From contig CAXHJY010000525.1 of the NCBI GenBank assembly GCA_964016885.1, forward strand, positions 62,001-126,000: a stretch of DNA of 64,000 nucleotides. Reading direction: 5' to 3'. This stretch comes from Eledone cirrhosa (lineage: Eukaryota). Below, one piece after another: positions 19,496 through 34,898 of the stretch (within the stretch, counting starts at the first letter, position 1; each line of letters begins with the position of its first letter). Below the pieces are notes generated by a model. The model saw nothing but the letters and a program-made list of their open reading frames with translations. It did not search any database and was not told the origin of the DNA. The translations under genes were made by a program, and so were the position numbers.

Positions 19496-21223
19496 TCAAA
19501 CGACAGCAGATTCATTGCGTGGCACGAAAAAACGACAGTAAAATCTCTTCCATGAGTTGAGTGTTTTGCCTGTCCATATCCACACTCCAGAAGTTATTCC
19601 CACTATTATAGTCATTAAATACTTAATCATAAAAACTGTGAAGTCTGGCCAAGGACGCGACGGATCGCCTGTATGAGGGCATGGAAAGAAATAGGTGACA
19701 CAGACACGGGAATGCCAAGAAACCATCCAATGGTCTCGGAAAGATTGTTCGTAGAAAAGACAGGCGATAACAATTGTGGCCGGTACGGTATAGAGAACGG
19801 AAAATATGCCGATTCGGACCATCAACTTCTCGAGTTTGTCTGTTTTAGTGCCGTCGCTCTTCATTATGGTCCGTATTCGGAAGAGAGACACGAATCCAGC
19901 GAGCAAGAAAGTCGTACCGATAATTAAATAGACGACGAGGGGAGCTAAGACGAATCCTCGTAAGGCATCGACGTCGAATATACCTGTGAAACATACCCCA
20001 CTGAGTACGTCTCCATCCACTTGTCCCATAGCCAGAATGGCTATTGTTTTTATGGCCGGGACAGCCCATGCTGCCAGATGGAAATATTGTGAATTAGCCT
20101 CTATCGCCTCGTGACCCCATTTCATACCAGCTGCTAGAAACCAGGTCAGTGTTAATATAACCCACCAAATTGAGCTGGCCATACTGAAAAAATAGAGCAT
20201 CATGAAGAGAATGGTGCAGCCTTCTTTCTTGGTGCCTTGCGTGATGATAGAAACCATTTTCTCCGGCGCCAAATTTAGGCTTGGTGGATCGAAAGGTTTG
20301 TTGCAGGCTACGCTGTCTCCCAGTGCGAATCCAACCACATAGGCCAGCGCCACCATAAAATAGCATCCGGACAGAAATATAATGGGACGTTCTGGGTATC
20401 GGAAGCGCGTCATGTCGATTAGGAAAGTGAGCACTGTAAACAATGTGGATGCCATGCAAATTGCCGAGCATATACCAATCCACATTCGGGCAAAATCTCT
20501 TTTATCAGGGGTGAAGAACATGTCATTACAAGGTGCCCCACAGTCACGGTCTAAGTAATTTCCAACCTTGAGACGGTAATTCAAGGTTTTGGGCACTCGG
20601 AATTCTACAGGACAATGGAAACCGTATTCTGAGGAATTCAGGTTGGGCGAGAAAACATCGTCCTGGTCGCTGTGGTCTGTTGGACGGAAAGTGTGGACTT
20701 TGGTTGCTGGAGAAGGCGTTGGATCTGTGATGTTCTCACCCACACATAGACCGGATCTTGGAAATTTCTCACATCTTAGAGATTCAGGCCATTCGAAGCC
20801 GAACCTGTTCATGAGTTTTTCACACCCTTCTCGGGCCTGTTGACACATCTGTTGGCATGGTGGGATAGCATGGTCTAACATTGTACACACTGGAGCATAC
20901 ATTGAACAGAGGAAAAAGCGTAAGTAGGGGCTGCATTCCACTTTGACTAGGGGGAAAAACTGATGTACTTCAAGGCCTGCATCATCCTGTTTTTGATGGT
21001 TCAAGATGTTTGGTAATATGGTCATGTTGTATTGAATACCTTTACATAAAGGTATGGTAATGGGTTCACATCTATCATGGGTTGGAAATACCTGAGGGTT
21101 GTTCACACGACGACTAAACGACTGACAATCCGCCAAGAAGCCACCATTGTGGAATGAAGACAACAAAAAACTACATACATACACAACACCGATCATAAAA
21201 CTTCTTCCTATGTGGTAATACAT
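19496..21223 (-). CDS. fzd1/2/7: Frizzled Wnt receptor, Fz1/2/7 class, single coding exon, 575 aa
   Basis: Signal-peptide-like N-terminus; CRD (CEPITIPLC...[16 protein letters not shown]...[11 protein letters not shown]); [12 protein letters not shown]; seven TM segments; [24 protein letters not shown]; Dishevelled-binding KTxxxW (KTLNSW). The start Met is not verified. Confidence 0.97.
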
Positions 21224-21727: not shown

Positions 21728-21946
21728 TTCAAAATTATATGTTATTCCCCTCGTAAAAGAAATAGGAGCTCCCTTGTTTTATTTCTTTTTTCTCTCCTGT
21801 CACTGTCTGTAGGTTCCATTAGATGTTTATATATTATATATTGGGCTGTTTGTTTATTTGGAGTTGGTTAGGTTTTGGCCTGAAAGAAAAGAAATGAAAA
21901 ATTAGTATTGTTGTTGATATGGGCAGAACATATATTTATTTATATA

Positions 21947-22410
21947 GTTATACTTTGGGAGGGCCATGCTGCCAATAAAAACACACGCACCTGTTGGTTT
22001 TCACTTCAATTTATTGTAAATTTCTGGTTGGTTGGTTGGTTCGATAACTGGATGGTTGTTGATATATTGTCAAAGGTCTTTTGTCACACATTCTGTGACC
22101 TCCTCAGTGAGTGGGTTTTTTATTTTGTGTCTCTCCTTTGTTCTGACCAACACCATCTTGTTTGTGTGTGTAGAACAAAACAAAGGAGAGACACAAAATA
22201 AAAACCCAGTCACTGAGGAGGTCACAGAATGTGTGACAAAAGAGCTTTGACAATATATCAACAACCAACCAACCAACCAAGCAGAAATTTATAATAAATT
22301 GAAGTGAAAACCAACAGGTGTGCGTGTGTTTTTATTGGCAGCATGACCCTCCCAAAGTATAACAATATCTGTTTCAACACACGTTTTCAGATAAGAATTC
22401 TTGCAAAAGA
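21947..22410 (+). mobile_element. Family F fold-back element (~190-bp arms) with a degenerate hammerhead at 22209-22251
   Basis: Arms 21947-22143 and 22178-22363. Motif GUCA-CUGAGGA-g-GUCACA-gaaug-UGUGAC-aaaa-gagc-uu-UGAC (GAAA mutated). The tail matches 48501-48566. Confidence 0.75.
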
Positions 22411-22479: not shown

Positions 22480-22655
22480 TAGTATGTATATATAAAAAAT
22501 ATATATATATATGTAAAAGGTAAACAGAAATAACACAAAGGGTACAGTATATGGAAGGAATATATTAGGTTAACGCTTAAAATAGCAGGAAGAGTGCCTT
22601 AAAGTTTTGAATGCTAGTCCTTCATCAAAAGAAAAAATTAGAAATTAGAAGAGAT

Positions 22656-22699
<44 letters not shown>

Positions 22700-22734
22700 A
22701 TCTCTTCTAATTTCTAATTTCTAAATAAAAGTTT

Positions 22735-22763
<29 letters not shown>

Positions 22764-22768
<5 letters not shown>

Positions 22769-22913
22769 AAAGTTTTATTTAAAATTGTTGGGTTACAACG
22801 AGTAAATATTTTATAACTGATATAAAGCACTCAACAAGTTTTGGAGTAGATATACGATATTAAACAAATGGAAACTATGGTTTTATAAATATAGTTTCCA
22901 TTTGTTTAATATC

Positions 22914-22918
<5 letters not shown>
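22764..22918 (-). mobile_element. Family D 3' fragment with a short fold-back
   Basis: Reverse complement matches 32578-32710; hairpin tatacgatattaaacaaatggaaacta...tagtttccatttgtttaatatcgtata. Confidence 0.75.
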
Positions 22919-22948
<30 letters not shown>

Positions 22949-23084
22949 GTATAGGATTATCCTAGATGTAGTAATGGTTAATTACTACACTGGATATGGT
23001 TGACGTACGGTGAGAGGTTACTCTACGAGTTATGGAAGAATTGTTGAAGAAATTTAGTTCCTGATCCTTCTGTATTCCGGAGTG

Positions 23085-23299
23085 TATATAAAGAATGAAT
23101 AATAACAGGTAGACATCATAAAAAGGTAATTTATTCCGTGTGCTCTGAGGATACAGTGGTCACAGCATTGGATATTTGAGTTCTGCAAATAGTTGTAAAT
23201 TTGCACATAGCATAACTAGGCTGTAGTACCACCGTGGAAACATTTGTAAGCACACGGAATAAATTACCTTTTTATGATGTCTACCTGTTATTATTCATT

Positions 23300-23308
<9 letters not shown>
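23085..23308 (+). ncRNA. Type I hammerhead ribozyme with a perfect 60-bp stem I and a large branched stem II (family G; element about 22945-23308)
   Basis: 23085-23144 is the exact reverse complement of 23249-23308. Between them lie CUGAGGA (23145), stem II uacaguggu/accaccgug plus acagc/gcugu, GAAA (23237), ca-uu-ug, and UA. Confidence 0.85.
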
Positions 23309-23330
<22 letters not shown>

Positions 23331-23753
23331 ACTTTGAATAACTTTGAAATGATTTGGCCAGTATTGGCCCAGGCCATGTCTAACTTAATAGCACCACCTG
23401 GCTAATATATATATATATAGTTCAAGGAGATGTCAAAACAGAGGTACAAAAAGTTATATTAGATTAACACTTTATATGGAAAAGGGGAAAAAAATTCAAC
23501 GTGTCGGGCTTCAGCCCTTCTTCAAGGGTACACAAATAGAGACAGGATCACAAAGGATAGATACAGAAAATAAAAGGTAGTCCAAGTAAAAAAAAAAAAA
23601 CGAAAATAAAGAGAGTAAAGGAGACAGACCATTAGGTAGTCTTAGTAATGATATTGGAATGCAAAGTGAAGTGTGTGTGTATTAGTGTTGATATTATGTG
23701 TGAGTGTATGTGTGAGTGTATGTGTGAGTGTATGTGTGAGTGTATGTGTATGT

Positions 23754-24935
23754 TTAACCTTTAGCATTTAAACCGGCTGCATCTGGCCAGAATTCTCTCA
23801 CCTCTTTCTGTTCAAACTGGCCATAACCAGCCCCTCATACTGACATTTTAACCCTTTAGCATTTAAACCGGCTGCATCTGGCCAGAATTCTCTCACCTCT
23901 TTCTGTTCAAACTGGCCATAACCAGCCCCTCATACTGACATTTTAACCCTTTAGCATTTAAACCGGCTGCATCTGGCCAGAATTCTCTCACCTCTTTCTG
24001 TTCAAACTGGCCATAACCAGCCCCTCATACTGACATTTTAACCCTTTAGCATTTAAACCGGCTGCATCTGGCCAGAATTCTCTCACCTCTTTCTGTTCAA
24101 ACTGGCCATAACCAGCCCCTCATACTGACATTTTAACTCTTTAGCATTTAAACCGGCTGCATCTGGCCAGAATTCTCTCACCTCTTTCTGTTCAAACTGG
24201 CCATAACCAGCCCCTCATACTGACATTTTAACCCTTTAGCATTTAAACCGGCTGCATCTGGCCAGAATTCTCTCACCTCTTTCTGTTCAAACTGGCCATA
24301 ACCAGCCCCTCATACTGACATTTTAACTCTTTAGCATTTAAACCGGCTGCATCTGGCCAGAATTCTCTCACCTCTTTCTGTTCAAACTGGCCATAACCAG
24401 CCCCTCATACTGACATTTTAACCCTTTAGCATTTAAACCAGCCATATCCGGCTAGAATTAGCTCACTTCTTTCTGTTCAAACTGGCTGTAACCAGCCATT
24501 CATACTGATGTTAAGGTAGTGTTCTAAAAATAAATAATATCAAAATCTCAGATTCGATAATATGTGAGATAATTATGTAAGATAAAGCCTTTACCACAAA
24601 AATATAATAGTATATATAGAGCAATGTGAATGCTATGTGAGATATTATGTGAGGTAAAGCCTTTACCACAAAAATATAATAGTATATATAGAGCAATGTG
24701 AATGCTATGTGAGATAATTATGTGAGGTAAAGCCTTTACCACAAAAATATAATAGTATATATAGAGCAATGTGAATGCTATGTGAGATAATTATGTGAGG
24801 TAAAGCCTTTACCACAAAAATATAATAGTATATATAGAGCAATGTGAATGCTATGTGAGATAATTATGTGAGGTAAAGCCTTTACCACAAAAATATAATA
24901 GTATATATAGAGCAATGTGAATGGTAAAGGGTTAA
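23754..24935. mobile_element. piggyBac-like MITE with tandemly amplified left (95 bp x ~8) and right (73 bp x ~5) parts
   Basis: ttaa(c)ctttagc-type starts at 23754, 23848, 23943, 24038, 24133, 24228, 24323 and 24418; the 73-bp unit spans 24565-24925; it ends gggttaa. Confidence 0.88.
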
Positions 24936-33109: not shown

Positions 33110-34898
33110 AGTTTCGGCCCTTTATGTTCTGAGTTCAAATGTCACTGAGGACGTGACATATGGACGGTCGTAAACACAAAAGCCTTCCCTAGTGAGTAAT
33201 GTACCTCCCAACATAGCTTAGTTGTCAGCGACCTCACGGTCAGAACTAGACGAACCTGGAAACAGAGGCCAACCTGGAGAAGAAAAATCTGGAAGCTGAA
33301 AGACCCCTCAGCGAGTAACAGATTTAAAGATATTTTACTCAACGCCTATGACAGTAAAGAAGAACAGATAGAGACATTCAATGTAGAAGAGCACTGGGAG
33401 TTCTTAAAAAATAACTTACTAAAGGCGACGGATGAGATCTGTGGCTGGAGTAAGACCACAAGCAGGAGGAGAGCGACTTGGTGGTGGAACAATAAGGTAG
33501 ATGAGGCAGTTAATGCCAAGAGACAGGCATGGAAAGAATGGAAGAACGGGGAAGCAGGGTACATTACATAGAGACCAAGAGGGAAGCTAGGCGACAAGTA
33601 TACTTAGCTAGGAGGGAAGCAGAGGATAGAAAATTCAAGCATGTTTTGCAACATCAGGACCAGAAACAGGAGGTATTCAAGATTGCGAGGCAGTGTGTCA
33701 GAGAGAATTGTGATGTCATTGGAGAGAAGTGTATCCGGAATGATAAAGGTGAGCTTGCCCTCACAAGTGCTGAGAAGAAAGATGCATGGAAGAGCCATTA
33801 TGATAAATTACTAAATGAGGAGAATGCATGGGAAGAAGAGACCCTACCCCAAGTAGACCCTATGGAGGGGCCAGTAGTACAAGTCAGCAGCAGCGTAGTA
33901 AGTAAGGCAATCAAAGATATGAAGACGGGGAAGGCAACCGGTCCATCGGGTATAGCTGCAGAGATGCTGAAGGCATCTGGGTCAGTAGGTCACACCATAA
34001 CCACACGTATTGTTAACCAGGTAATACTAGGTGTCATACCAAAGGATTGGTGCAGTAGCATCATTGTCAACTGCTACAAAGGTAAAGGTGATGCACTAGA
34101 TAGAGGAAACTATAGAGGTATAAAGCTGATGGACCAGGTCATGAAAGTAACAGAAAGAGTTATAGCACAGTTGATTAGGGACCGGGTGAAACTAGATGAG
34201 ATGCAATTTGAGTTTGTGCCAGGAAGAGGCACCACTGATGCCCTCTTCCTTGTGAGGCAGTTACAGGAAAAGTACCTAGCTAAAAGTAAGCTGCTCTACC
34301 TGGCATTCGTCGATCTTGAGAAAGCCTTTGACAGAGTTCCCCGTGCTATAATCTGGTGGGCTCCTGTATGCAGATGACCTCGCACTTATAGCTGAATCTA
34401 TGGTAGAACTAGAGAAGAAATTCCAAACTTGGAAGCAGGGACTAGAAAAAAGGGTCTCAAAGTCAACCTGACAAAGACTAAGGTCCTTGTAAGTAGACAA
34501 GAAAACAGAACCCAGATCCCCTCAGGGAAGTGACCTTGCTCAGTATGTAGGAAAGGTGTATGTAGGAACTCCATTCTCTGCCCCAAATACAAACAATGGG
34601 TACACAAGAGATGTAGCGGGATCTCAGGAAGCTTAACTAAGAATGTAGGCTTCACATGTAGCAGCTGTGCTGGGACAGTAAGCAGCAAACAGCCACAGGA
34701 AGCAAGTACCACCAAACTCTGGGAGGGCTCTGTAAAAACAGTAGACAGCTTCTGCTATCTAGGTGAGCGAATTAGCAGTGGAGGTGGGTGTTCGGAAAGT
34801 ACAATAACTAGGGTAAGAACGGGATGGAAGAAGTTTAGGGAGCTACAACGATTGCTAGCTGCAAAAGGCTTTTCCCTCAAAATGAAAGGCTAACTGTA
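33110..34898 (+). pseudogene. Decayed RTE-clade LINE ORF (linker and RT, internal deletion, PHD finger); longest ORF 33529-34377
   Basis: KATGPSGI..EMLK, KGKGD..DRGNYRGIKL, QF.F.PGRGTTDA.F..RQLQEK, AFVDLEKAFDRV. A deletion near 34360 fuses this to LLYADDL; stop codons follow. Same family as 1-991. Confidence 0.93.

What the first reader, a model, noticed from the sequence alone, without database searches (positions are those of the whole stretch)
22945..23308. Hammerhead with a perfect 60-bp stem I whose inversion junction coincides with the cleavage site
Seen: the sequence immediately 3' of the predicted GUA cleavage site (agcacacgg..., 23249) is mirrored exactly up to the base before CUGAGGA (23144). 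Stem II is about 85 nt and branched (tgcaaat/atttgca). Inference: 22945-23144 is cDNA of an RNA whose 5' end was made by self-cleavage. That cDNA end equals the stem I 5' strand and re-primed on the ribozyme core, giving a genomic record of cleavage. The alternative is a genuinely long stem I. The element lies about 1.9 kb upstream of the frizzled start codon.
Basis: partly seen in the sequence, partly recalled or inferred. Interest (0 to 1): 0.75.

Follow-up and report, generated by a model that had tools for sequence, protein, structure and literature searches.

The report
Inverted Penelope insertion mimics long stem
This is a short, head-to-head insertion of a jumping gene that carries a predicted self-cutting RNA; its perfect 60-letter hairpin was likely made when two copied strands were joined during insertion, and copies across the genome stop no more often at the predicted cut site than at nearby letters, so it is likely not a record of cutting.

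Summary
The 60-bp perfect inverted repeat and the type I hammerhead core are there. The element is a truncated, inverted insertion of a Penelope-like retroelement (PLE) with Hydra-clade motifs. It is likely not a record of cleavage. 1350 of 1364 arms read through the cut site and 8 stop there, against 4, 4, 8 and 8 at four control positions. 5' ends instead pile up at -114..-109, the first bases of stem I (21 of 162), on an initiator-like A. A sister family repeats this: 0 of 100 at the cut, 15 of 100 just before its core. The junction carries the 4-base overlap TGCT, which is native stem I, so stem self-complementarity alone gives the coincidence. A small share of cleaved templates is not excluded. 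The scan noted both patterns before in other genomes. No RNA data. Ordinary member of a known kind; the breakpoint census is of moderate interest.

The parts
22914..22944 (.). (TA)n microsatellite, left target half
   Evidence: 88 of 100 long ends of the family have (TA)4 within 12 nt
22945..23144 (-). Long arm: inverted copy of element positions +200 to +1 (counted from the predicted cut); its outer end is the family's long 3' end (with the 140-nt tail)
   Evidence: 199 of 200 identical to L034/L035; 93 of 100 long arms end at +199..+204
23085..23144 (+). Left arm of the perfect 60-bp inverted repeat (apparent stem I 5' strand); only the last 4 nt are native stem I
23141..23144 (+). 4-nt overlap TGCT shared by both arms (+4..+1 inverted = -108..-105 direct): the junction
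   Evidence: gap -4; same junction at one other locus, L143, 9 differences in 364 nt and different adjacent flanks
23141..23308 (+). Short arm: direct copy of element positions -108 to +60; outer end is the family's short 3' end
   Evidence: 168 of 168 identical to L034/L035; partner arm ends at +55..+62 in 62 of 100 insertions
23145..23248 (+). Type I hammerhead core: CUGAGGA, 85-nt stem II hairpin, GAAA, 2-bp stem III with 4-nt near-palindromic loop, GUA
   Evidence: core letters kept in 109-115 of 115 copies except the free position N7; compensatory versions in three sister families
23248..23249 (+). Predicted self-cleavage site GUA^A (not tested)
   Evidence: position by hammerhead consensus (established knowledge)
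23249..23308 (+). Right arm of the inverted repeat, element +1 to +60
23303..23331 (.). (TA)n microsatellite, right target half (overlaps the element's terminal TATATA)
19496..21223 (-). Neighbouring single-ORF frizzled gene; bystander, reads away from the ribozyme strand

Best explanation
This is a 364-bp head-to-head insertion of a Penelope-like retroelement in a (TA)n tract, and its 60-bp stem is likely a joining product of two cDNAs copied from uncut RNA rather than a record of ribozyme cleavage. Shown: the two outer ends are the family's two fixed 3' ends (+200 and +60), the arms are inverted, and they overlap by TGCT. Inferred mechanism: the element's endonuclease cuts both strands of (TA)n, each end primes reverse transcription inside the RNA (one at about +200, one at +60), the +60 cDNA runs through the uncut ribozyme to or near the RNA's 5' end (likely a transcription start at -112), and its 3' end anneals to the other cDNA where the two are complementary. 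Native stem I offers such a match at +4..+1, so the join lands on the cut site and extends the apparent stem to 60 bp.
For: Intact unit with RT and GIY-YIG-like ORF between two repeats 3182 bp apart; Atlas look-alikes carry RVT_1 and GIY-YIG. 72 of 100 long arms join an inverted partner within 30 nt; 39 of 72 joins overlap by 1 nt or more, 11 of 72 by 4 or more. 1350 of 1364 arms read through the cut; 8 true junctions there, against -1: 9 (8 distinct), +2: 4, +12: 4, -13: 8 (curated by eye). Hot spot -114..-109: 21 of 162 ends, 4.5% per nt against 0.2-0.3%; maximum 11 in 20000 uniform simulations; 44 of 668 exact matches break after -112, 20 of the first 30 are junctions. Sister family: 0 of 100 at the cut, 15 of 100 at -98..-100. 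In vitro, a PLE uses uncut RNA and two internal start sites (PMC11167929).
Against: 8 junctions at +1 exceed the rate seen 3' of the ribozyme (0.21% per nt predicts 2.9; Poisson p 0.009, or 0.03 without the window copy), though not the rate inside it (0.34% predicts 4.6; p 0.10) nor the control mean of 6 (p 0.26). 6 of the 8 stop at +1 without using stem I as overlap. Control denominators were not counted, only assumed near 1300. The transcription start is inferred; the cap-G signature is inconclusive (9 of 20 C, several templated), and start site and stem edge coincide, so a structural stop is not excluded. No RNA run was available.
Confidence: 0.78

Rival explanations
1. One reading: the long arm was copied from a self-cleaved RNA, ended exactly at +1, and its TGCT end then primed on the second cDNA. 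A small share of insertions, this one among them, would record cleavage.
For: The long arm does stop at +1. 8 ends at +1 and 8-9 at -1 are about twice the 4 and 4 at +2 and +12. The same junction arose at two loci. The ribozyme is under selection: C3-G8 to U3-A8 and changed stem I pairs in sister families.
Against: -13 has as many junctions as +1; 1 of 162 and 0 of 100 ends at the site in unbiased samples; the overlap makes the break ambiguous and predicts recurrence without cleavage; the partner arm was copied from uncut RNA; the active fold is not the lowest-energy fold of the native RNA (3.9-8.2 kcal/mol above it).
Confidence: 0.18
2. The 60-bp stem I is an intrinsic, selected part of this ribozyme or a host-adopted regulator of frizzled.
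For: Perfect pairing; hammerhead-constrained fold only 1.5 kcal/mol above the minimum in the window copy; 1.9 kb from a frizzled start.
Against: 2 of 1364 exact-match arms have this junction; intact copies have a short stem I; arms are 99.5-100% identical to young dispersed copies, so perfection reflects age; the locus is a (TA)n tract crowded with other repeats.
Confidence: 0.02
3. The hairpin is an assembly or library fold-back artefact.
For: No contig bridged the junction with 31 letters on both sides in four public runs of unrecorded type (one 59-nt contig has 17 and 42).
Against: Both outer ends are the family's biological ends in (TA)n; the arms are asymmetric; 72 of 100 insertions have such joins at varied positions; the junction recurs at an independent locus.
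Confidence: 0.02

Closest known systems
Hydra clade of C-terminal EN+ Penelope-like elements (PMC8557442, section 11 read)
   Same: RWK, DKT, CxCX5C linker, CxxC and CxH in the endonuclease, single ORF, hammerhead in the terminal repeat, (TA)n targets.
   Different: Unit 3.2 kb against 'generally <3 kb'; tail 140 nt (130-137 in the sister family) against the 30-40 bp given for PLEs; stem II 72-90 nt. No tree was built.
Inverted pLTR insertions of Penelope elements (PMC3846280 passages; PMC8557442 passages)
   Same: Inverted 5'-truncated copy, tail at one end only, microhomology at junctions, initiator-like sequence in the pLTR.
   Different: There the inversions were read as self-priming on an antisense template; here the two fixed, different outer ends fit priming from both target ends. 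Here one junction falls on stem I.
Poseidon element PAc of Anolis, in vitro (PMC11167929, parts 1-2 of 4 read)
   Same: Both DNA strands cut and extended, two internal RT start sites that define the tail, uncut RNA as template, no RNA ends at the cut site.
   Different: PAc start sites are adjacent and not homologous to the target; here they are 140 nt apart and each ends in TA-rich bases that match the (TA)n target.
PLE minimal hammerheads (PMC4209133, passages)
   Same: Type I, short stem I (4-5 bp), tiny palindromic stem III, U3-A8 variant, pairs on opposite strands 100-700 bp apart.
   Different: Stem II is far longer here (85 nt against 7-8 bp); activity untested.

Membership tests
Type I hammerhead ribozyme | Core CUGANGA ... 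GAAA ... NUH in order, with stems I, II, III | tested here: met
   constrained fold keeps all three stems
Type I hammerhead ribozyme | Core conserved and stems kept by compensatory change | tested here: met
   8 of 20 sister-family loci hold a core (plus 1 likely chance hit; none found in 11); U3-A8 in two families, stem I TATT/AATA, GTATT/AATAC, AGGT/ACCT; within the family changes are too few
Type I hammerhead ribozyme | Match to an Rfam hammerhead model | tested here: not met
   no hammerhead family; the 85-nt stem II likely exceeds the models (inference)
Type I hammerhead ribozyme | Self-cleavage after GUA | not testable with these tools
   no RNA holder listed
EN+ Penelope-like element | Single ORF with RT and C-terminal GIY-YIG endonuclease between pseudo-LTRs | tested here: met
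   L032: repeats 3182 bp apart, YRDDG and IVY..YIG motifs, two frameshifts; open frames of 784-788 aa in other copies; Atlas neighbours with RVT_1 and GIY-YIG at 0.92-0.94. Pfam and PDB searches gave no RT hit
EN+ Penelope-like element | Partial tandem and inverted 5'-truncated copies, tail on one end | tested here: met
Hydra clade of PLEs | RWK, DKT, CxCX5C, CxxC and CxH motifs; (TA)n targets | tested here: met
   RVRWKAF, KADKTSN, CNCHLPERC, CRLC, CNH; definition; targets
Hydra clade of PLEs | Placement in the clade on an RT tree | not tested
   no reference sequences fetched; the paper's supplementary alignment was not seen
Non-LTR retrozyme | Head-to-tail tandem short units, each with a hammerhead, no ORF | tested here: not met
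   copies are dispersed, inverted and truncated from a coding unit; definition in 10.64898/2026.07.22.740005

The most novel reading that the evidence does not exclude
PLE insertion breakpoints are a genomic map of the element's RNA: it starts on the first base of the ribozyme's stem I, is copied uncut more than 99 times in 100, and the slight excess of ends at +1/-1, this copy included, is the first in vivo trace that a metazoan PLE hammerhead cuts and that the cut RNA can be reinserted.
Probability: 0.18. Interest if true: 0.55.

Novelty: new member of a known kind. Interest (0 to 1): 0.3.

Why it matters
What hammerheads do in Penelope-like elements is an open question (PMC8557442; PMC4209133). 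The census here bounds it: under 1% of copied templates end at the cut, which agrees in vivo with the in vitro result that uncut RNA is the template (PMC11167929). It also predicts that the RNA begins on the ribozyme's first bases, so a cut would remove the cap and 112 nt; that is directly testable. As a warning, long perfect 'stem I' hammerheads in animal genomes can be insertion junctions. The locus itself is an ordinary young transposon stub.

Tried and rejected
Rfam: no hammerhead match. Pfam and PDB: no RT match for the L032 pieces. RNA: no RNA holder listed; the four runs were contigs with (TA)n-flanked ends, showed no splice joint and did not bridge the junction by the 31-letter rule; neither is evidence. 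Intron idea: GUA^AG is also a GTAAG donor, with CTAAT at +197 and AG at +217/218, and splicing would remove two upstream ATGs; donor and acceptor are not kept in most sister families, so it is left unsupported. Cap-derived G at -112: 9 of 20 junctions show C next (p 0.04 against 25%, 0.11 against 30%), several explained by the partner arm; inconclusive. The similarity search favours copies like the query and was not used for rates. Sequence look-up in earlier findings returned nothing. Copies starting at the cleaved 3' end (-1): none among the 30 loci.

Full report
Coordinates. Element positions are counted from the predicted cut: +1 is the first base after GUA (window 23249), -104 is the C of CUGAGGA (23145). 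The reference is the minus strand of locus L032.

Observation. The repeat is real: 23085-23144 against 23249-23308, 60 of 60 complementary, z = -16.7. The core is CUGAGGA, an 85-nt stem II, GAAA, AC-AUUU-GU and GUA. Stem II is a bulged, unbranched hairpin. Rfam gives no hammerhead. Frizzled starts at 21223 on the minus strand, 1.92 kb away.

What it is. A search of the own genome scored 40 of 2228 candidates and gave 86 matches. Mapping three parts of the query on 40 loci showed copies in which the core is followed by the reverse complement of 22945-23144 and preceded by another sequence. L032 holds two such repeats 3182 bp apart around a frameshifted ORF with RWK, DKT, YRDDG, CNCHLPERC, IVY..YIG, CRLC and CNH, the motifs listed for the Hydra clade of Penelope-like elements (PMC8557442 section 11). 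Other copies have open frames of 784-788 aa. Pfam and PDB searches missed the RT; Atlas neighbours carry RVT_1 and GIY-YIG. The native stem I is TGCT/AGCA, a CACG bulge, then ATTC/GAAT. The window copy is thus +200 to +1 inverted, joined to -108 to +60 direct, with TGCT shared. Both arms are 99.5-100% identical to L034 and L035: a young insertion.

The ribozyme motif is under selection. Of 20 loci from families at 64-77% protein identity, 8 hold a core with all three stems, 1 gave a likely chance hit and 11 none (several are truncated). Two families have U3-A8 in place of C3-G8, a variant also reported in PLEs (PMC4209133); stem I differs in sequence and still pairs; stem III is an exact palindrome in two. 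The native active fold lies 3.9 to 8.2 kcal/mol above the minimum, and such motifs cleave poorly as monomers. Cleavage itself was not tested.

Architecture of insertions. A 24-mer at the far end of the long arm had 139 exact matches, 100 listed; all 100 were fetched. Of 102 rows, 2 duplicates were dropped. 93 of 100 long arms end at +199..+204, 88 next to (TA)n. The partner ends at +55..+62 in 62, near +200 in 5, elsewhere or cut off in 10, and is not seen in 23. 72 join an inverted partner within 30 nt; 39 of 72 overlap by 1 nt or more and 11 by 4 or more, 4 are blunt, 29 have inserted bases. This is the known PLE pattern of an inverted 5' copy and a one-sided tail (PMC8557442; PMC3846280).

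Test of the cleavage claim. If cut RNA were a usual template, 5' ends should peak at +1. In the sample 1 of 162 arms ends at +1/-1. Genome-wide, a 20-mer ending at +1 is followed by the native base 1350 times and by another base 14 times; 6 of the 14 are substitutions and 8 are junctions, 2 of the window's type. The second, L143, differs at 9 of 364 bases and has other adjacent flanks. The same design at -1, +2, +12 and -13 gave 16, 13, 17 and 28 matches and 9, 5, 4 and 11 automatic junction calls. By eye I removed L175 (substitution, +2), L222 (ends at -19) and L210/L211 (short templated fragments of one event) at -13, and counted L165/L166 once: 8, 4, 4, 8. Denominators for these controls were not measured. 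Against their mean of 6, 8 is unremarkable (p 0.26); against the rate 3' of the ribozyme it is high (p 0.009), against the rate inside it not (p 0.10). So at most a few of about 1360 arms could be cleaved ends; the excess is neither shown nor excluded.

Where ends do fall. 21 of 162 lie at -114..-109, 4.5% per base against 0.21% (+45..+2) and 0.34% (-2..-99); uniform simulation never exceeded 11 in 20000 runs. After -112, 44 of 668 exact matches leave the native sequence; 20 of the 30 examined are junctions, about 29 of 668 against 8 of 1364 at +1 (Fisher p 1e-8). In an independent sister family (1526 matches, the 100 listed fetched) no arm ends at +1/-1, 15 end at -98..-100 (8 at -100), 1.9% per base over -95..-110 against 0.25% inside the ribozyme; outer ends are +53/+60 (54) and +190 (25). 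A cluster at -416..-456 in that call is likely the edge of the reference and was ignored. Both peaks sit on the A of a pyrimidine-CA context (CCATTCT, CTCACTA), 8 and 6 nt before the core. The initiator consensus is recalled; TCACT is called initiator-like in a rotifer PLE, and Penelope has its start inside the pLTR. A transcription start is the likeliest reading, but it coincides with the edge of stem I, and the cap-G test is inconclusive.

Mechanism. Shown: ends, orientation, overlap and breakpoint frequencies. Inferred: both target ends prime inside the RNA, at +200 and +60; the +60 cDNA crosses the uncut site and stops near the RNA's 5' end; its 3' end is complementary to +4..+1 of the other cDNA because those bases are stem I; annealing and fill-in give the perfect stem. 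In vitro, the Anolis PLE extends both strands, starts at two internal sites, prefers uncut RNA and shows no RNA ends at the cut (PMC11167929).

Novelty. Inverted copies, tails and pLTR hammerheads are in print. Six searches listed no paper whose title or abstract start describes a breakpoint census against the cut site; most subscription papers and all supplements were unseen, and the supplements of PMC8557442 and PMC11167929 may bear on clade and end positions. Two earlier notes of this scan report the same two patterns in other genomes; my reading was filed before seeing them. Papers seen: PMC11167929 parts 1-2 of 4; PMC8557442 passages and sections 10-11; PMC4209133, PMC3846280, PMC2377424 passages; 10.64898/2026.07.22.740005 part 1 of 5. 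The host was not determined.

Verdict. Real motif, real hairpin, ordinary origin; new member of a known kind; interest 0.3.

Noticed in passing
L032 minus strand, element -3 to +250: The cut triplet doubles as a GTAAG splice-donor match; CTAAT at +197 (its second A is the long 3' end) and an AG at +217/218 precede the first ORF ATG at +250; no ATG in -112..-4, two at +26 and +29. Not kept in most sister families.
   Followed up: partly
L290, L294, L295, L297, L300, L302: Sister PLE families with 72-90 nt stem II hammerheads, two with the U3-A8 core; one has 1526 exact matches of a 22-mer.
   Followed up: partly
family-wide, element +60 and +200: The tail is 140 nt, far above the 30-40 bp in print, and nearly always one end is long and the other short (62 against 5 of 100). 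Why the two target ends use different start sites is unexplained.
   Followed up: partly
window 21942-22368: A second large head-to-head repeat (arms about 180 nt, 92-96% complementary) next to (TA)n, present in 31 of 390 fetched loci; each arm has CTGAGGA and a hairpin, with no GAAA seen after it. Possibly another inverted PLE stub.
   Followed up: no
window 22500-22915: Several short repeats between (TA)n tracts, one found in 41 of 390 loci: the tract upstream of frizzled is an insertion hot spot.
   Followed up: no
window 23750-24430 and 24572-24926: Tandem arrays of 95-bp and 73-bp units, 98-100% alike, inside a dispersed repeat.
   Followed up: no
L108, L210/L211, L011, L251: Junctions with short repeated template switches (20-150 nt fragments copied twice), a sign of repeated re-priming during joining.
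   Followed up: no
L173/L174: A perfect fold-back in which both arms end at +2, one base from the cut site.
   Followed up: no
window 33200-34893: Fragments of an RTE-type LINE reverse transcriptase frame (label recalled from the translation).
   Followed up: no
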